IMG/VR virus record: IMGVR_UViG_2563366802_000009
Reading direction: 5' to 3' (one strand)
Length of the DNA: 8,613 nt
Source: a virus
Taxonomy: Duplodnaviria > Heunggongvirae > Uroviricota > Caudoviricetes
The notes beneath the pieces are model-generated. The model saw only the letters and a program-made list of their open reading frames with translations. It was not told where the DNA came from and made no database searches. Made by a program: the position numbers and the translations under genes. The stretch's first letter is position 1, and the number at the start of each line of letters is the position of its first letter. Positions 1-5,980 of the stretch are shown in pieces.

Positions 1-561
1 CAGCACGCGGGCCAGCAGCCCCGGTCCTGCGATACCCCGCTCGATGGGCCGTGAAGGCGCGGGGGCCTGCACGATGGCATCGCACTGAGTACAGGCATGC
101 TTTTCACGTACAGTCCGGATAACCCGGAAGGCGCTGCGCATCAGCTCCAGCTGTTCGGCGGCATCCTCACCCAGATAGCTCAGCGAGCCTCCACATTCCG
201 GGCAGCATGACGCTGCCGGCAGCAGCCGTTTTTCATCGCGGGGGAGTGATTCGGGGAACGGTTTGCGGGTGCGGGTTTGACGCAGCGGGCGCTGCACGGC
301 CGGGTCGTCAACCCGACCGGTAAGGGTATCACTTTCTTTCTGAAGTGCCTTCAGGTCAGCTTCCATCTGTGCGATACGACGGGAGACTTTTTCCGAGCGG
401 CTGCCGAAGTTCATCCGGCGCAGCTTATCCAGCTGTGCCTGCAGATGGTCTATTTCGCGTTCACGCTCGTTCAGCTTTTCCTGCAGGGCACGGTTCAGCG
501 CCTCCTGTTCGGCAAGGAGACGTTTCAGTGCATTGATATCGTCAGGAAGTGAGCTGCTCAT
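1..561 (-). CDS. tnpC: IS66-family transposase TnpC, N-terminal 187 codons only (3' end lies beyond window start)
   Basis: Reverse-strand ATG at 561 opens a frame translating MSSSLPDDINALKRLLAEQEALNRALQEKLNEREREIDHLQAQLDKLRRMNFGSRSEK..., through a CxxC..CxxC segment, open to position 1. Absent from the ORF track because no stop lies inside the window. Recognised from memory as the leucine-zipper N-terminus of IS66 TnpC. Confidence 0.8.
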   Translation of the reverse strand, partial: MSSSLPDDINALKRLLAEQEALNRALQEKLNEREREIDHLQAQLDKLRRMNFGSRSEKVSRRIAQMEADLKALQKESDTLTGRVDDPAVQRPLRQTRTRKPFPESLPRDEKRLLPAASCCPECGGSLSYLGEDAAEQLELMRSAFRVIRTVREKHACTQCDAIVQAPAPSRPIERGIAGPGLLARVL

Positions 562-609
562 ACCGGGTATATTACCAGGCTCATTCAGCGTCGACCAGGA
601 TAAAGAGGC

Positions 610-957
610 TTACAACATAGTCAGGGACGTAAGCAGTCTTTTAGGCTGCCGCCAGTCGATACCTTCAAGGAGCATCGCCAGCTGTGCCGGTGTGAGGAAC
701 ACTTTGCCATCCCGGGCTGACGGCCAGGCGAAGCGGCCGCGCTCCAGCCGTTTGGTCAGCAGACACAGTCCATCGCCGGTAGACCAGAGGAGCTTTACCT
801 GACTGCCATTACGCCCACGGAAGATAAAAACGTGACCTGACATCGGATCGTCTTTCAGCGTCGTCTGCACCTTTGCCGCCAGGCCGTTGAAGCCGTTTCT
901 CATATCGGTGATGCCAGCGACCAGCCAGATCTTTGTCCCTGATGGTAATGGGATCAA
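610..957 (-). CDS. tnpB: IS66-family accessory protein TnpB (Orf2)
   Basis: 115 aa ORF (MIPLPSGTKIWLVAGITDMRNGFNGLAAKV...) typical of IS66 Orf2; sits between tnpA and tnpC. Confidence 0.9.
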   Translation of the reverse strand: MIPLPSGTKIWLVAGITDMRNGFNGLAAKVQTTLKDDPMSGHVFIFRGRNGSQVKLLWSTGDGLCLLTKRLERGRFAWPSARDGKVFLTPAQLAMLLEGIDWRQPKRLLTSLTML

Positions 958-1358
958 CGTTTGAGCTCCCGTATCAGCAGGTTCAGGATATTTTCGCTGA
1001 TGGCACCATTCAGACGGAGTGATCCGTGCCGGAACGTCACTTCACAGCTGATATTGAGTGATTCAGGTGTCGCAGCAGCTACAGGTTGTGACCGGGGGGA
1101 GGTTGTAGGGACAACATCTTCGGCATCAAGAGTTATCGGGAGCAGCTCAGGCACGTTGTTTTCTGTTGTTGAAGGAGGACGTAGTTTTCCTTCGCGCCAG
1201 TACTGGCGCCACTTGAACAGCAAATTATCGTTGATCCCATGCTCACGAGCGAGTTGCGCTACGGAGATCTCTGGTCGATGCGAGAGTTCAACCATTTTGA
1301 TTTTGAACTCAACGGGATAATTAGGGCTTTTTTTACGCACTGCGGTTAATGATTTCAT
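954..1358 (-). CDS. tnpA: IS66-family TnpA (Orf1), helix-turn-helix protein
   Basis: 134 aa ORF (MKSLTAVRKKSPNYPVEFKIKMVELSHRPEISVAQLAREHGINDNLLFKWRQ...); its stop overlaps the tnpB start by 4 bp, as is usual in IS66 elements. Confidence 0.9.
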   Translation of the reverse strand: MKSLTAVRKKSPNYPVEFKIKMVELSHRPEISVAQLAREHGINDNLLFKWRQYWREGKLRPPSTTENNVPELLPITLDAEDVVPTTSPRSQPVAAATPESLNISCEVTFRHGSLRLNGAISENILNLLIRELKR

Positions 1359-2170: not shown

Positions 2171-2181
2171 GTGGAGTGGAT

Positions 2182-4554
2182 ATGGCAGCAGTAAAAATCT
2201 CAGGTGTGCTGAAAGATGGTGCGGGAAAACCAATACAGAACTGCACTATTCAACTGAAGGCAAAGCGTAACAGCACCACGGTACTGGTGAACACGGTGGC
2301 CTCTGAAAATCCGGATGAAGCCGGGCGTTACAGCATGGATGTTGAGTATGGCCAGTACAGCGTCATCCTGCTGGTTGAAGGTTTTCCGCCTTCACATGCC
2401 GGGACCATTACCGTCTATGAAGGTTCCAGACCAGGTACGCTGAATGATTTTCTTGGTGCCATGACGGAGGATGATGCCCGTCCGGAGGCACTGCGCCGTT
2501 TTGAACTGATGGTGGAAGAAGCAGCACGCAACGCTGAAGCCGCCTCTCAGAGCGCAGCGGCGGCAAAGAAATCCGAAACTGCAGCGGCATCATCGAAGAA
2601 CGCGGCGAAAACCTCAGAAACGAATGCAGCTAATAGTGCACAGGCGGCAGCGACCTCACAGACTGCATCAGCAAACTCCGCGACAGCAGCCAAAAAATCA
2701 GAAACCAACGCGAAAAACAGCGAGACAGCCGCAAAGACGAGCGAAACCAACGCAAAGTCCAGCCAGACGGCAGCGAAAACCAGCGAAACGAATGCCAAAG
2801 CCAGTGAAACTGCGGCAAAAAACAGCCAGGTTGCAGCAGCCCAAAGCGAGAGCGCGGCAGCCGGTTCTGCGACTTCAGCAGCTGGATCAGCAACTGCTGC
2901 GGCTAACAGCCAGAAAGCTGCGAAGACGAGTGAAACTAACGCAAAGTCCAGCCAGACGGCAGCGAAGACCAGCGAAACGAATGCCAAAGCCAGCGAAACT
3001 GCGGCGAAAAACAGCCAGGATGCAGCAGCCCAAAGCGAGAGTGCCGCAGCTGGTTCTGCAAGTGCGGCGGCTTCTTCTGCCACTGCATCAGCCAACAGTC
3101 AAAAAGCAGCAAAAACCAGTGAAACCAACACAAAGGCGAGCGAGACTGCGGCGACTAACTCGGCGAAAGCATCCGCTGCAAGCCAGATGGCTGCAAAAGC
3201 AAGTGAAGACGCAGCCAGAGAGTATGCAAGCCAGGCAGCAGAGCCGTATAAATATGTCTTACAGCCACTGCCTGATGTGTGGATACCGTTTAATGACTCG
3301 ATGGATATGATTACAGGATTTGGCCCGGGATATAAAAAAATAACAGTGCGCGATGATGTGGTCACTATACCATCCGACAAAATTGTCCCGTTTTCCCGCG
3401 CGAGTTCCGCGACCTATATCAATAAGTCCGGCGCTCTTACCATTGCAGAAATTAATGAGCCACGTTTTGAAAAAGAAGGGCTGTTAATTGAAGGGCAGAG
3501 AACAAATTACTTCACAAACTCAAACGCTCCGGAATTGTGGAATAAAAATCCAGGCCTGAAGATAAGCGAGACAAAAACCGATTCCAGGGGTTTTAAATAT
3601 GCAACGTTTACCCCAGAAAAATATTTAGATAGTTCTGGCTCATATGGAATTATATCAGGGGCAGCAGCAAATAAGATAGCGGTAGTCAAAAATGATGCAG
3701 TTACAATATCCTTTAGAGCAAAAGGGGATAATGTAAGATTTGCGGCTAGATTTGATAAAGGGGATTCGCCAGTTGCTGTAGCTGCCATTTTTATTGATAG
3801 CGCCACACTAGATACATTCACGTCTGGAGCAGATGCGTCTAATATTGCTGTGAAAAATGTTGTTCGTGACGGTGAGTGGGTTGCTGTAGAGGCTGTTTAT
3901 AAAGTAACAGACGACTCTACATATATTAACGGCGCCATTCTGATGTCAAACAAACTGGGTGCTAATTTTGATAAGACTAGTTTTATGGATGTAACCACCC
4001 CTCAAATAGAGCTAGGTTCTTGCTTATCATCATTTATTGTCACACCAGGTGTTCCTGCGACAAGGGCGAGTGATATGGTTATTTTTTCAACCAGAAATAA
4101 CATAAGTTCTGTCCCTTTAAGCTGTCTTGTTGAAATACATAAAAATTGGGACTCTACGCCAAATCAGTCCCCACGAATTTTAACCACTATTGGCGTGGCG
4201 ACTAATGATGAACAACTGGTATTTGCTTTCAGGACGCCTACAAGTCCGGATGTAGAACCTTTACCTTATGTTCAGTTTGGAGTGAGATCTGCATATCTTA
4301 GTCCATTTGTGAAGGCCGGGCGCAAAATGATTGCTGGTTTTGTCTGTAATAGCTCGACTGAATTTCGTTGCAGTTGTAATAGTTACCTGTCACCTGTTCA
4401 GACTTCGTCATGGAAGAATACCGGAGCTGCACATGAAATACGTATTGGGGGAACTTCTGCTGGAGGAGAACGTCACTTGTTTGGTCACGTTCGTAACCTG
4501 AGAATATGGCATAAAGAATTAACTGATGCGCAAATGGGGGAGAGTATTAAATGA
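2182..4554 (+). CDS. stf: Side tail fibre protein (Stf-like), mosaic: lambda-like N-terminus, repeat shaft, divergent low-GC C-terminal module
   Basis: N-terminus MAAVKISGVLKDGAGKPIQNCTIQLKAKRNSTTVLVNTVASENPDEAGRYSMDVEYGQYSVILLVEGFPPSHAGTITVYEGSRPGTLNDFLGAMTEDDARPEALRR matches lambda Stf from memory. Ala/Ser/Thr/Lys-rich 14-residue repeats follow (KTSETNAKSSQTAA...). The C-terminal ~520 aa is AT-rich and ends ...GHVRNLRIWHKELTDAQMGE, which resembles the C-terminal strand motif of concanavalin-A-like/LamG jelly-roll domains (inference). Start placed at ATG 2182 (GGAG 5 nt upstream) rather than the track's GTG at 2176. Confidence 0.85.
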   Translation: MAAVKISGVLKDGAGKPIQNCTIQLKAKRNSTTVLVNTVASENPDEAGRYSMDVEYGQYSVILLVEGFPPSHAGTITVYEGSRPGTLNDFLGAMTEDDARPEALRRFELMVEEAARNAEAASQSAAAAKKSETAAASSKNAAKTSETNAANSAQAAATSQTASANSATAAKKSETNAKNSETAAKTSETNAKSSQTAAKTSETNAKASETAAKNSQVAAAQSESAAAGSATSAAGSATAAANSQKAAKTSETNAKSSQTAAKTSETNAKASETAAKNSQDAAAQSESAAAGSASAAASSATASANSQKAAKTSETNTKASETAATNSAKASAASQMAAKASEDAAREYASQAAEPYKYVLQPLPDVWIPFNDSMDMITGFGPGYKKITVRDDVVTIPSDKIVPFSRASSATYINKSGALTIAEINEPRFEKEGLLIEGQRTNYFTNSNAPELWNKNPGLKISETKTDSRGFKYATFTPEKYLDSSGSYGIISGAAANKIAVVKNDAVTISFRAKGDNVRFAARFDKGDSPVAVAAIFIDSATLDTFTSGADASNIAVKNVVRDGEWVAVEAVYKVTDDSTYINGAILMSNKLGANFDKTSFMDVTTPQIELGSCLSSFIVTPGVPATRASDMVIFSTRNNISSVPLSCLVEIHKNWDSTPNQSPRILTTIGVATNDEQLVFAFRTPTSPDVEPLPYVQFGVRSAYLSPFVKAGRKMIAGFVCNSSTEFRCSCNSYLSPVQTSSWKNTGAAHEIRIGGTSAGGERHLFGHVRNLRIWHKELTDAQMGESIK
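2731..3059 (+). repeat. Two ~140 bp direct repeats (2731..2870 and 2920..3059) with a 189 bp period inside the stf shaft region
   Basis: By eye the copies differ at about 10 of 140 positions. The 189 bp offset is 63 codons, so both are in frame, each encoding ...KTSETNAKSSQTAAKTSETNAKASETAAKNSQ(V/D)AAAQSESAAAGSA. Confidence 0.8.
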
Positions 4555-4832
4555 AAGATTTAACACTCAAATTTGCAGACAGGGCCGACTTTTCGGCCTT
4601 TATGGAGAGCATTGGCTATTATGATGACGAGTCGATGCAGGATGATATTCTTATTGACGTGATAGGTAATGTGTACAAAGAAACCGGAGAACTGACTGAA
4701 GATGGCGAACCGGTATGTGTTAAGGAAGACGGATATTTTGTAAACGTGCGCATCATTAATGATGCAAAAAAATCGTCAATATTTGATGAATACGCGGTTG
4801 TAGTTGAACATCAACTTCGTGGCTGGATGTGA
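4551..4832 (+). CDS. Hypothetical small acidic protein (93 aa), translationally coupled to stf
   Basis: Start ATG overlaps the stf stop (ATGA at 4551..4554), with GGGGGAG upstream. About 21 Asp/Glu versus 9 Lys/Arg, net charge roughly -12. AT-rich like the stf 3' half. No family recognised. Confidence 0.55.
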   Translation: MKDLTLKFADRADFSAFMESIGYYDDESMQDDILIDVIGNVYKETGELTEDGEPVCVKEDGYFVNVRIINDAKKSSIFDEYAVVVEHQLRGWM

Positions 4833-4841
4833 GGGAGACAA

Positions 4842-5546
4842 ATGGCTACATCGACAGTAATTCCGGGAGACATCACCACGCTGAAGGGAGATGTCAGTAA
4901 AGCGAAGGAAGATATTTCCTCAATTAACGGTAAAGTGTCAATGCTTCAGACTGATATGACCAGTGCAAAGCAGGATATCAGCTCCAGATACACAAAAACT
5001 GAAGTTGATAATAAGCTGAAAAACAAAGTAGAAGTGAACGATCTGGAAAGTGGTCGTTATGGCGGAGATTTTTATCCACTGACAGGTCGTGAAGCGTTTT
5101 ATTTATGGGGATTGGGCACAACTACAGCGGCGGCAAATCTTTATCTTAATCCTGACCCTGCAATTTCGTCTGTGCTGCGGTCAACATCGTCTATCCGCTA
5201 TAAACATTCAGTAGAGACGATAGATTCAGAGCACGCCGATCTCATTTTCAGGATGCGCCCTGTATGGTACAGGTCGCAATGCGAAAATGACAGGCGTGAC
5301 TGGGGATTCTACGGATTGATTGCCGAGGAAGTAGGAGAAATTGCCCCTCAGTTTGTACACTGGCGACCAGCTAACGAGAATGATGCTCCTGAAGCTATTT
5401 CCAGCAATGGACTTGTTGCCGAAGGTGTAATGTACGAATGTCTGGTTGTTCCACTGATTCACCATATCCAGAAACTGACTGAAAGAGTTGATGAACTTGA
5501 GTCAGAATTAAAGTTGTTATTAACTTCCCGAAGCGATATTAGATAA
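4842..5546 (+). CDS. Small tail-fibre-like protein (234 aa) with a C-terminal peptidase S74-like intramolecular chaperone domain
   Basis: GAGGGAG Shine-Dalgarno 6 nt upstream. N-terminus carries two ~20-residue repeats (LKGDVSKAKEDISSINGKVS / LQTDMTSAKQDISSRYTKTE). The C-terminal half matches the S74 chaperone consensus as recalled: SSIRYK (Ser...Lys at i and i+5), LIFRMRPVWYR, GFYGLIAEEVGEIAPQFV, then YECLVVPLIHHIQKLTERVDELESEL. Confidence 0.7.
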   Translation: MATSTVIPGDITTLKGDVSKAKEDISSINGKVSMLQTDMTSAKQDISSRYTKTEVDNKLKNKVEVNDLESGRYGGDFYPLTGREAFYLWGLGTTTAAANLYLNPDPAISSVLRSTSSIRYKHSVETIDSEHADLIFRMRPVWYRSQCENDRRDWGFYGLIAEEVGEIAPQFVHWRPANENDAPEAISSNGLVAEGVMYECLVVPLIHHIQKLTERVDELESELKLLLTSRSDIR

Positions 5547-5556
5547 AGGAGGAGTA

Positions 5557-5850
5557 ATGGATATAACACCTTTTCTTCATGCGCTTTGTGCTGTGGCTGC
5601 GCAGACACTGGTTGGTCTTTTTACCGGAAACTGGGCTTATGGGGCGATAGCTGGTTGTACGTTCTTCATTGCGCGTGAACACACCCAGGCAGAATATCGC
5701 TGGATTGAAATGTTCGGGCATGGCAAGCGGATTAACATGCCGTGGTGGGGCGGTTTTGATCCGCGTGTTTGGGATGTGGCAAGCCTGATGGATTTTGCTG
5801 TGCCGGTGGTGGCGTGTCTGCTGATCTGGCTGTTGGTTAATCGTGGGTGA
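5557..5850 (+). CDS. Hypothetical small membrane protein (97 aa, 2-3 predicted transmembrane segments)
   Basis: Strong Shine-Dalgarno (AAGGAGGAG) 2-4 nt upstream of the ATG. Hydrophobic stretches at residues ~3-39 and ~71-94 flank a Trp/Gly/Arg-rich loop (RWIEMFGHGKRINMPWWGGFDPRVW). More GC-rich than the two preceding genes. No family recognised. Confidence 0.55.
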   Translation: MDITPFLHALCAVAAQTLVGLFTGNWAYGAIAGCTFFIAREHTQAEYRWIEMFGHGKRINMPWWGGFDPRVWDVASLMDFAVPVVACLLIWLLVNRG

Positions 5851-5860
5851 AAAAAGGTGA

Positions 5861-5980
5861 GCTGTATATGCAACGGAGGAAGAAACCCCGTTGCTGGAAG
5901 CCAGGAAAAAGTATCGGGTGTTGCTGAACCGTGTTGATACGTCAACTGCACAGGATATTGAATGGCCAGCACTGCCGTAG
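5861..5980 (+). pseudogene. tfa: 3' remnant (~40 codons) of a tail fibre assembly gene tfa; no start codon, 5' part missing
   Basis: Frame open 5861..5977 encodes [39 protein letters not shown], matching the conserved C-terminus of lambda-type Tfa (...[31 protein letters not shown]..., recalled). An in-frame TGA lies at 5858..5860. Confidence 0.7.

What the first reader, a model, noticed from the sequence alone, without database searches (positions are those of the whole stretch)
4551..4832. Highly acidic 93 aa protein coupled to the stf stop and in frame with the next gene across one TGA
The ATG overlaps the stf stop (ATGA), implying coupled translation. The product is strongly acidic (net about -12), a composition typical of DNA-mimic anti-restriction proteins, immunity proteins or small chaperones. 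Its stop TGA (4830..4832) is followed 9 nt later by the ATG of the 234 aa gene in the same frame, so stop-codon readthrough or an ancestral fusion (330 aa) is conceivable, though the strong ribosome-binding site before 4842 argues for separate initiation.
Basis: partly seen in the sequence, partly recalled or inferred. Interest (0 to 1): 0.45.

Follow-up and report, generated by a model that had tools for sequence, protein, structure and literature searches.

The report
Small acidic partner of tail-fibre gene
This 93-residue acidic protein is a real, very common prophage gene that across many unrelated phage groups sits directly behind a sugar-binding tail-fibre gene, so it is most likely a fibre helper protein and not an anti-restriction protein or a read-through fusion.

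Summary
The ORF at 4551-4832 starts in an ATGA overlap with the stf stop, has net charge -12 (pI 4.19), and ends in TGA followed by 9 nt and the in-frame ATG of the 234-aa gene.

Read-through or fusion is not supported:
- No fused homologue was found in any search.
- The spacer is 9, 10, 11 or about 2 nt in related phages.
- The stop is often TAA.
- In two phages the next in-frame gene is an unrelated membrane protein.

The anti-restriction idea is also not supported. The gene always lies inside late tail-fibre modules, and its confident AlphaFold model (pLDDT 88.5) resembles no DNA mimic.

orf93 belongs to PHROG 1361/18574 (function unknown). In every member examined, the ORF just upstream encodes a fibre or tail protein. 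That protein carries the GTA head-spike-fibre lectin domain in all nine cases scanned and is a close Stf C-terminal homologue in four more. Conversely, 58 of 111 independently sampled genes with that domain are followed within a few bases by a family member or remote relative. The acidity is conserved across the family.

The best reading is a co-translated accessory or assembly partner of the lectin head of Stf. This function is inferred from gene order, not shown. Interest is moderate to low.

The parts
2176..4554 (+). stf, side tail fibre (792 aa). It has an N-terminal prophage tail-fibre domain, an Ala-rich repeated shaft, a GTA head-spike-fibre domain (aa 437-631, nt 3484-4068) and a C-terminal tail of about 160 aa that resembles a laminin-G lectin domain.
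   Evidence: Pfam phage_tail_N scores 2.4e-67. PHROG 1419 covers the full length. NCBIfam NF048003 GTA_spike_fiber scores 56.6 bits against a cutoff of 36. A 189-nt repeat of 2.3 copies lies at 2716-3154. The C-terminal tail is shared with other GTA-domain ORFs. A relative has a weak Laminin_G_3 hit.
4470..4901 (+). Block conserved at the DNA level between lambdoid phages and a Nonagvirus. It holds the last 27 codons of stf, all of orf93 and the first 20 codons of the 234-aa gene. It is probably a recombination linker between variable fibre cassettes.
   Evidence: The megablast match to phage ESCO3 covers query 171-602 at 88.7%. Tritos, 2G7b and HannyBb matches also start at query 171. The last 30 aa of the upstream fibre are 69-93% identical, against 40-66% for the rest of the C-terminal region.
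4536..4544 (+). Shine-Dalgarno-like GGGGGAGAG upstream of the orf93 start.
   Evidence: Read directly from the sequence.
4551..4832 (+). orf93, the finding. It is a 93-aa acidic protein of PHROG 1361/18574. Conserved positions are G39, the strand G61-Y-F-V-N65-V-R67, and R90-x-W92 at the extreme C-terminus.
4833..4841 (+). 9-nt spacer GGGAGACAA holding the ribosome-binding site of the next gene.
   Evidence: Related phages have equivalent spacers such as TAAGGTTTTATAATG and TAAGGATTAATTATG, in which the stop codon abuts the Shine-Dalgarno sequence.
4842..5546 (+). 234-aa tail-fibre-domain protein. It has an N-terminal motif (aa 1-16) that recurs in related phages, a coiled coil, and a Peptidase_S74 intramolecular-chaperone domain (aa 116-172, nt 5187-5357).
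   Evidence: Pfam PF13884 scores 27.3 bits against a cutoff of 22. PHROG 3299 matches C-terminal positions 1147-1383 of 1385. The N-terminal motif M-x-T-x-T-x-I-P-x-D-I-x-x-L-K recurs in lambdoid, T1-like, T5-like, Queuovirinae and Dhillonvirus phages. Homologues are 134-405 aa.
5557..5850 (+). 97-aa hydrophobic protein (PHROG 1443, function unknown), the last gene of the compact + strand block.
   Evidence: No promoter-like or terminator-like site lies on the + strand between 2176 and 5850. Its homologue directly follows the orf93 homologue in phages 4A7 and PhiR40_1.

Best explanation
orf93 is a small cytoplasmic accessory protein of the side tail fibre. It is made from the same late mRNA as Stf, and its translation is coupled to the end of stf.

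I infer that it binds the C-terminal sugar-binding head of Stf as that head emerges. The head consists of the GTA head-spike-fibre domain plus a tail of about 160 aa that resembles a laminin-G lectin domain. In this reading orf93 acts as an assembly or folding helper, or as a bound partner. It would play the same positional role as Tfa behind lambda stf, but with an unrelated fold.

Shown here:
- The gene is real and conserved, and its acidity is conserved.
- It adjoins, and is coupled to, ORFs that carry the GTA_spike_fiber domain.
- It initiates independently of the downstream 234-aa gene.

Inferred only:
- Physical binding to the fibre head.
- Any helper function.
For: 1. Forward synteny.
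- In every family member examined whose 5' flank is present and intact (about 30 loci; three others begin at a contig edge, and in phage 4A7 an IS has replaced stf), the ORF immediately upstream is a large fibre or tail protein. This holds in lambdoid, Drexlerviridae, Demerecviridae, Vequintavirinae, Dhillonvirus, Queuovirinae, P2-like, Mu-like and uncultured phages.
- All eight distant upstream proteins scanned match NCBIfam GTA_spike_fiber, five above the curated cutoff. The window's Stf also matches.
- The four enterobacterial upstream proteins compared by phmmer are close Stf C-terminal homologues. Six more are 40-50% identical in global alignment.

2. Reverse synteny.
- 111 evaluable GTA_spike_fiber ORFs were picked by a DNA motif of the domain, independently of the small gene.
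- 36 are followed at once by an HMM-detectable family member. A further 22 are followed by a small acidic remote relative (hhalign probability 91.7%, E = 7.7e-7).
- 54 of these 58 start within -20 to +15 nt of the fibre stop.

3. The downstream gene varies among relatives. It is an S74 fibre, a baseplate hub, a distal tail protein, a terminase, a scaffold or a membrane protein. The constant neighbour is therefore the upstream fibre.

4. No promoter-like or terminator-like site lies on the + strand between stf and orf97.

5. The AlphaFold model built with 18 homologues is confident (pLDDT 88.5). The conserved extreme C-terminus (R90, W92) has the lowest confidence in the model, which would fit a tail that orders on a partner.

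6. In this window the usual tfa position behind stf is taken by orf93. RefSeq annotates only a tfa pseudogene fragment further downstream.
Against: - No binding, assembly or virion data exist. I found no paper that discusses this protein. The BASEL paper models the IrisVonRoten Gp22-Gp24 fibre and, in the passages read, says nothing about Gp23, the orf93 homologue.
- About half of the GTA_spike_fiber ORFs sampled (53 of 111) have no detectable family member behind them, yet they share the same C-terminal tail domain. The RcGTA head fibre Rcc01080 is followed directly by capsule-synthesis genes, with no small partner described. The domain therefore does not generally need this protein to fold.
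- orf93 sequence type does not co-vary with the Stf head. L028 has the most similar head (66% identity) but a 43%-identical small protein. Tritos has a 44%-identical head and a 91%-identical small protein. A classic allele-specific fibre chaperone would not be expected to behave this way.
Confidence: 0.5

Rival explanations
1. orf93 is a structural connector or hinge. It stays in the virion and joins the proximal fibre (Stf) to a distal fibre, the S74-domain protein encoded next, which would dock through its conserved N-terminal motif.
For: - In enterobacterial phages the order proximal fibre, small ORF, S74 fibre recurs in five phage groups. The distal protein's first 16 residues recur in all of them, and the last 30 residues of the proximal fibre are strongly conserved.
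- A P2-like phage shows the same logic: gpH-like fibre, small ORF, second fibre, Tfa.
- Two-part lateral fibres are proposed for IrisVonRoten (Gp22 plus Gp24) and shown genetically for DT57C.
Against: - Many family members have no distal fibre gene after them. Examples are Mu-like L004 (baseplate hub), rV5-like phages (distal tail protein), PhiR40_1 and 4A7 (membrane protein), and environmental loci (terminase, scaffold).
- In the passages read, the IrisVonRoten Gp22-Gp24 complex is described with no role given to Gp23.
- DT57C LtfA and LtfB are adjacent genes with no small ORF between them.
Confidence: 0.15
2. orf93 is a transient cap or acidic receptor mimic. It would occupy the glycan-binding site of the fibre head inside the producing cell or on debris, and leave before infection.
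For: - Strong acidity is conserved in the whole family (41 members, pI 4.05-4.58, net charge -7 to -21).
- The partner domain is a carbohydrate-binding head.
- The pairing is frequent but not obligatory, as expected for an optional regulator.
- The idea of chaperone caps on fibre tips exists in the literature.
Against: This is purely speculative, with no structural or experimental support. The published cap chaperones resemble S74 intramolecular chaperone domains, which orf93 does not. Small acidic composition is common among cytoplasmic phage proteins.
Confidence: 0.1
3. orf93 is a DNA-mimic anti-restriction or other anti-defence protein, or an immunity protein.
Against: - The gene is always embedded in late tail-fibre modules and coupled to a fibre gene, in many unrelated phage groups.
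- It has no Pfam, NCBIfam or PDB sequence match.
- Stf carries no toxin domain that would need an immunity protein.
Confidence: 0.03
4. TGA 4830-4832 is read through, or the two genes were once fused, giving a product of about 330 aa that joins orf93 to the 234-aa protein.
For: The two genes share a frame. The 9-nt spacer has no further stop, so read-through would insert X-G-R-Q. The 9-nt spacing recurs in 7 of 11 related phage loci.
Against: - No credible fused homologue was found in any search, and no orf93-family signal was found in 55 homologues of the 234-aa protein.
- The spacer is 10, 10, 11 or about 2 nt in four loci, and the genes overlap out of frame in distant loci.
- The stop is TAA in six of eleven enterobacterial loci and in 37 of 58 sampled small ORFs.
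- In 4A7 and PhiR40_1 the in-frame downstream gene is the unrelated membrane protein.
- The spacer itself is a ribosome-binding site.
Confidence: 0.02

Closest known systems
Tail fibre assembly proteins of the Tfa / Caudo_TAP type (lambda Tfa, P2 gpG, Mu gpU)
   Same: The gene lies immediately downstream of the fibre gene in the late operon, often with overlapping stop and start. The product is small and acidic. In this window orf93 takes the position that tfa holds behind stf in phage lambda, and only a tfa pseudogene fragment remains further downstream.
Two-part or branched lateral tail fibres (T5-like DT57C LtfA/LtfB; IrisVonRoten Gp22 plus Gp24)
   Same: A proximal fibre carries a lectin-like C-terminal domain, and a separately encoded distal fibre carries an S74 intramolecular chaperone. 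IrisVonRoten Gp22, Gp23 and Gp24 correspond gene for gene to stf, orf93 and orf234.
   Different: The passages read from the published descriptions give the small middle gene no role. DT57C has no such gene. The distal protein here is very short: 234 aa, and only about 115 aa if cleaved at the start of the S74 domain.
RcGTA head spike (Rcc01079 base plus Rcc01080 fibre)
   Same: The fibre domain upstream of orf93 is the NCBIfam GTA_spike_fiber domain that defines Rcc01080-type polysaccharide-binding fibres.
   Different: Rcc01080 attaches as a single subunit to a pentameric base on the capsid. Its gene is followed directly by capsule-synthesis genes, with no small partner described. Here the domain sits at the end of a tail fibre.
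Intramolecular (Peptidase_S74) and trans 'cap' chaperones of fibres and tailspikes
   Same: They are dedicated helpers encoded with the fibre. The neighbouring 234-aa gene carries an S74 domain, and its T1-like homologues are annotated as putative lateral tail fibre chaperones.
   Different: orf93 itself has no S74 similarity. Its predicted fold is a small alpha/beta fold, not the S74-like intramolecular-chaperone fold reported for the cap chaperones.
DNA-mimic anti-restriction proteins (Ocr, ArdA)
   Same: High negative charge density in a small protein.
   Different: It lies in a late structural module, not an early or leading region. It has no sequence or fold similarity to these proteins.

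Membership tests
PHROG 1361 / 18574 (phage proteins of unknown function) | Full-length profile match | tested here: met
   phrog_1361 matches at E = 7.2e-47 over residues 1-93 of 92 profile positions. phrog_18574 matches at E = 1.7e-8. Distant relatives hit both profiles.
PHROG 1361 / 18574 (phage proteins of unknown function) | Gene lies directly after an ORF with a GTA_spike_fiber domain (a feature defined in this work) | tested here: met
   The window's Stf scores 56.6 bits against a cutoff of 36. All eight distant upstream proteins scanned match the domain, five above the cutoff. In the reverse sample, 58 of 111 domain ORFs are followed by a family member or remote relative.
Tfa / Caudo_TAP tail fibre assembly proteins | Sequence homology to the Tfa family profiles | tested here: not met
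   No Pfam, PHROG or NCBIfam Tfa hit for orf93 or 17 relatives, even at E up to 1.
Tfa / Caudo_TAP tail fibre assembly proteins | Encoded immediately downstream of the fibre gene it serves | tested here: met
   ATGA overlap with the stf stop. The overlap is conserved in relatives.
Tfa / Caudo_TAP tail fibre assembly proteins | Binds the fibre tip and is required for fibre trimer folding | not testable with these tools
No multimer prediction or experiment was possible.
DNA-mimic anti-restriction proteins (Ocr, ArdA type) | Sequence or fold similarity to a known mimic | tested here: not met
DNA-mimic anti-restriction proteins (Ocr, ArdA type) | Early-expressed gene outside the structural modules | tested here: not met
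   The gene always lies between fibre and tail genes. No promoter-like site lies on the + strand within the block.
DNA-mimic anti-restriction proteins (Ocr, ArdA type) | Inhibits a restriction enzyme | not testable with these tools
   This needs an in vivo restriction-alleviation assay.
Programmed stop-codon read-through / split gene | Frame relation to the downstream gene conserved among homologues | tested here: not met
   The spacer is 9 nt in 7 loci and 10, 10, 11 and about 2 nt in 4 loci. Distant loci have out-of-frame overlaps.
Programmed stop-codon read-through / split gene | Fused homologues exist | tested here: not met
   No credible fusion was found. The 48 true relatives among the representatives are 36-150 aa, and three long repeat-like proteins score weakly in short stretches. 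All 120 listed clusters are 87-114 aa. There is no family signal in 55 homologues of the 234-aa protein.
Programmed stop-codon read-through / split gene | Leaky stop codon conserved | tested here: not met
   The stop is TAA in six of eleven enterobacterial loci. Among 58 sampled small ORFs the stops are TAA 37, TGA 14 and TAG 7.
Peptidase_S74 intramolecular chaperone proteins (for the neighbouring 234-aa gene) | Pfam PF13884 above the gathering score | tested here: met
   27.3 bits against a cutoff of 22, residues 116-172.

The most novel reading that the evidence does not exclude
The orf93 superfamily (PHROG 1361/18574 plus the remote 'HxFxGW' group) would be a previously unrecognised, widespread class of dedicated partner proteins for lectin-type receptor-binding heads of the GTA head-spike-fibre kind. 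It is unrelated to Tfa, to T4 gp38 or gp57A, and to S74 chaperones. It might act as an acidic cap or glycan mimic that keeps the sugar-binding head masked until release. If so, it would need to be co-transferred when such heads are grafted onto engineered phages.
Probability: 0.4. Interest if true: 0.6.

Novelty: new variant of a known kind. Interest (0 to 1): 0.35.

Why it matters
Receptor-binding fibres are the main target of phage host-range engineering, and chimeric lambda Stf proteins are already used for DNA delivery. Heads of the GTA head-spike-fibre type are common. The module around this gene matches 1913 of 5426 complete E. coli genomes, and the protein is found in 183 cultured phage genomes from many groups.

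About half of such heads carry this small coupled gene, which annotation calls 'hypothetical'. If the protein is needed for assembly or regulates the head's activity, then grafting these heads without it could fail, and knowing this would improve fibre design and annotation.

For this window itself the result is mostly a clarification. The gene is an ordinary, very common fibre-module gene. It is not an anti-restriction gene and not a recoding site.

Tried and rejected
- Single-sequence AlphaFold gave an unusable model (pLDDT 49). The run with 18 homologues was used instead.
- The afdb50 fold library was not available. The BFVD search returned only uncharacterised phage proteins.
- Alignment-based locus searches failed for lack of a conserved stretch. 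I used single proteins and a degenerate DNA motif instead.
- My first motif regex was wrong and found nothing. It was corrected.
- I looked for a Pin-invertible segment that might explain the cassette layout. Only 14-17 nt imperfect inverted repeats were found, and they were judged chance.
- I looked for virion proteomics that would settle whether the protein is structural. The rV5 and Septuagintavirus papers and a search for phage 9g did not resolve the homologue.
- I checked whether fibre genes with and without the small partner differ in their C-terminal tail domain. They do not.
- I checked whether orf93 type co-varies with the fibre head or with the distal fibre N-terminus. It does not.
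- The genome-collection scan, limited to the exact peptide PGWHVNLR, found only 9 loci: Cupriavidus and other Burkholderiaceae, Pseudoroseomonas, and a Flavobacteriales MAG. This shows breadth but adds little.
Full report
**Observation.**
- The window carries stf at 2176-4554 (792 aa) and a 93-codon ORF at 4551-4832.
- The ORF's ATG (4551-4553) overlaps the stf stop (4552-4554) as ATGA. A purine-rich GGGGGAGAG lies 7 nt upstream.
- The product has 12 D, 9 E, 6 K and 3 R, giving net -12 and pI 4.19.
- It stops at TGA 4830-4832. Nine bases later (GGGAGACAA, a ribosome-binding site) comes the ATG of a 234-aa gene in the same frame.
- Every factual element of the finding is therefore confirmed.

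**Setting.**
- The window is the tail-fibre end of a Rac-like lambdoid prophage of E. coli. In the closest RefSeq record the gene order is: IS66-family genes, lom, stf, orf93, the 234-aa 'tail fiber domain-containing protein', a 97-aa hypothetical protein, a tfa pseudogene fragment, pinR, ydfK, ynaM, uspF.
- The region 4300-5900 matches 1913 of 5426 complete E. coli genomes. It also matches lambdoid phages and, for the block 4470-4901 only, a Nonagvirus.
- No promoter-like or terminator-like site lies on the + strand between stf and the 97-aa gene. The four genes therefore look like one late transcription unit.

**What the neighbours are.**
- Stf has the prophage tail-fibre N-terminal domain. 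It also has a shaft with a 189-nt repeat.
- It then has the NCBIfam GTA_spike_fiber domain (aa 437-631, 56.6 bits against a cutoff of 36) and a C-terminal tail of about 160 aa.
- The 234-aa protein has a Peptidase_S74 intramolecular-chaperone domain (aa 116-172). It corresponds to the last 240 positions of a 1385-position fibre profile.

**The family.**
- orf93 has no Pfam or NCBIfam match. It is a full-length member of PHROG 1361 (E = 7e-47), with a weaker match to PHROG 18574.
- A full HMMER scan of 1.84 billion representatives found only 51 proteins. The 48 that are true relatives are 36-150 aa. Three long proteins (1797-2928 aa) score weakly in several short stretches each and look like repeat noise, though I did not inspect them.
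- tblastn finds homologues in 183 cultured phages: lambdoid phages, Drexlerviridae, Dhillonvirus, Queuovirinae, T5-like Demerecviridae and rV5-like Vequintavirinae.
- IMG/VR and genome scans add P2-like, Mu-like and environmental phages, plus prophages of Cupriavidus and others.
- Conserved positions are G39, the strand G-[YW]-[FH]-V-N-[VL]-R, and R-x-W at the extreme C-terminus.
- Acidity is a family trait: 41 members have pI 4.05-4.58 and net charge -7 to -21.

**Gene order, forward test.**
- In every member examined whose 5' flank is present and intact, the small gene starts at or within a few bases of the stop of a large upstream ORF. The overlap is most often 1 or 4 nt. In phage 4A7 an IS has replaced stf.
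- All eight distant upstream proteins scanned match the GTA_spike_fiber domain, five above the curated cutoff.
- Four enterobacterial upstream proteins are strong homologues of the window's Stf C-terminal region by phmmer. Six more are 40-50% identical in global alignment.
- The upstream protein is a lambda-type Stf, a T1- or T5-type lateral fibre, a 1479-aa rV5-type fibre, a P2 gpH-type fibre, or a protein lodged between Mu N-like and P-like baseplate genes.
- The downstream gene is not constant. It is an S74 fibre in several enterobacterial phage groups. Elsewhere it is a baseplate hub, a distal tail protein, a terminase, a scaffold protein or the 97-aa membrane protein.

**Gene order, reverse test.**
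- To avoid circularity I sampled GTA_spike_fiber ORFs by a degenerate DNA motif for the domain's C-terminal YIPTxGxxVTR.
- A local HMM confirmed 131 such ORFs, and 111 of these have at least 330 nt of downstream sequence.
- 36 are followed at once by a member detected with a family HMM.
- 22 more are followed by a small acidic ORF of a second group (N-terminal 'IYKTNF / KKYEF', C-terminal 'HxFxGW'). hhalign relates this group to the family at probability 91.7%, E = 7.7e-7 over 84 columns.
- 54 of these 58 ORFs start within -20 to +15 nt of the fibre stop.
- ORFs with and without a partner share the same C-terminal tail domain of about 158 aa.
- The pairing is therefore very strong but not obligatory.

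**Read-through or fusion.**
- No fused protein turned up among the relatives of orf93 or among 55 homologues of the 234-aa protein. None of the latter gives any signal with the family HMM.
- In eleven enterobacterial phage loci the spacer is 9 nt (same frame) in seven, and 10, 10, 11 and about 2 nt in four.
- The stop codon is TGA in five of them and TAA in six.
- In PhiR40_1 and 4A7 the in-frame gene after the spacer is the unrelated 97-aa membrane protein.
- The 9-nt spacer is a stop codon abutting a Shine-Dalgarno sequence, which is a normal coupling design. The shared frame is an inherited by-product.

**Anti-restriction or DNA mimic.**
- The family's constant place inside late structural modules, coupled to a fibre gene in unrelated phage groups, does not fit an early anti-defence gene.
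- The AlphaFold model built with 18 homologues is confident (pLDDT 88.5, pTM 0.75). It is a small beta-alpha-beta(4) fold with a less confident C-terminal tail.
- No DNA mimic and no Tfa structure appears in these lists.

**Literature.**
- I found no paper that discusses this protein.
- The BASEL 2025 paper models the IrisVonRoten lateral fibre as a proximal Gp22 with a protruding galectin-like C-terminal domain, plus a distal T-shaped Gp24 with an intramolecular chaperone. In the genome, Gp23 between them is the orf93 homologue, and the passages read give it no role.
- The T1-like homologues of the 234-aa protein are annotated 'putative lateral tail fiber chaperone'.
- In RcGTA the name-giving fibre Rcc01080 binds capsule polysaccharide as a single subunit on a pentameric base. 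Its gene is followed directly by capsule-synthesis genes.
- DT57C has a branched LtfA/LtfB fibre with no small intervening gene.

**Most likely mechanism.**
- The constant features are co-transcription, translational coupling, and adjacency to a lectin-type fibre head.
- I therefore read orf93 as a dedicated accessory protein that meets the head of Stf as it is made. It would be an assembly helper or a bound partner, and a positional analogue of Tfa with an unrelated fold (confidence 0.5).
- Gene order is shown. Binding and function are inferred.
- Three observations weigh against a strict folding-chaperone reading:
  - About half of the related heads have no such partner.
  - RcGTA has none described.
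  - orf93 type does not co-vary with the head type.
- Rivals:
  - a virion connector between the proximal and distal fibre (0.15);
  - a transient acidic cap or receptor mimic on the sugar-binding head (0.10);
  - an anti-defence or immunity protein (0.03);
  - a read-through fusion (0.02).

**Novelty and weight.**
- The gene itself is already in every database as a hypothetical protein, and it is extremely common.
- What is new is the two-way association with GTA_spike_fiber heads, the remote second group, the confident fold with no solved relative, and the clear rejection of the recoding and anti-restriction ideas.
- I rate it a new variant of a known kind (a fibre accessory protein) with moderate to low interest.

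**Limits.**
- The reverse sample depends on one DNA motif and on the sensitivity of my local HMMs.
- E-values from local searches refer to small databases.

Noticed in passing
window 4842-5546: The 234-aa S74-domain protein is very short. If it cleaves at the start of the S74 domain (aa 116), only about 115 residues of coiled coil would remain. Its first 16 residues (M-x-T-x-T-x-I-P-x-D-I-x-x-L-K) recur in lambdoid, T1-like, T5-like, Queuovirinae and Dhillonvirus phages and look like a docking motif. T1-like homologues (225-231 aa) are annotated as a trans chaperone. Whether it is a minimal distal fibre or a chaperone is open.
   Followed up: partly
window 5557-5850: A 97-aa hydrophobic protein (PHROG 1443, function unknown) closes the fibre block. 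In phages 4A7 and PhiR40_1 its homologue follows the orf93 homologue directly, with no distal fibre gene between them. The same region matches phage 21 and many lambda-like phages, and in the phage 21 record the features under the match include 'putative membrane protein'.
   Followed up: partly
window 1-1358 and about 5870-5980: IS66-family tnpA/tnpB genes lie directly upstream of lom, where tail genes such as J would be expected. RefSeq annotates a tfa pseudogene fragment after the 97-aa gene. The prophage therefore looks like a defective remnant in which an older stf-tfa cassette was replaced. In the closest genome (NZ_CP103739.1) stf is also split by IS5, whereas it is intact in the window.
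   Followed up: partly
window 2547-3310: The Ala/Ser/Thr/Lys-rich shaft of stf holds a 189-nt repeat (2.3 copies, 84% matches, 2716-3154). This repeat also produces long spurious ORFs: 182 aa on the - strand and 228 aa in another + frame.
   Followed up: yes
L046, L060, L064, L089, L104, L122, L141 (IMG/VR loci): Several uncultured phages carry two tandem GTA_spike_fiber ORFs followed by a single small family member, which sits after the second ORF only.
   Followed up: no
L048, L054, L072, L094, L099, L124 and 16 more IMG/VR loci: A second group of small acidic proteins (about 105-130 aa, with an 'HxFxGW' motif near the C-terminus) sits in the same position behind GTA_spike_fiber ORFs. The group is related to the orf93 family only at profile level (hhalign probability 91.7%).
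   Followed up: partly
L073, L101, L132 (IMG/VR loci): In some GTA_spike_fiber loci without a family member, the ORF coupled to the fibre stop is instead a small hydrophobic protein of 65-76 aa. This recalls the 97-aa membrane protein of the window.
   Followed up: no
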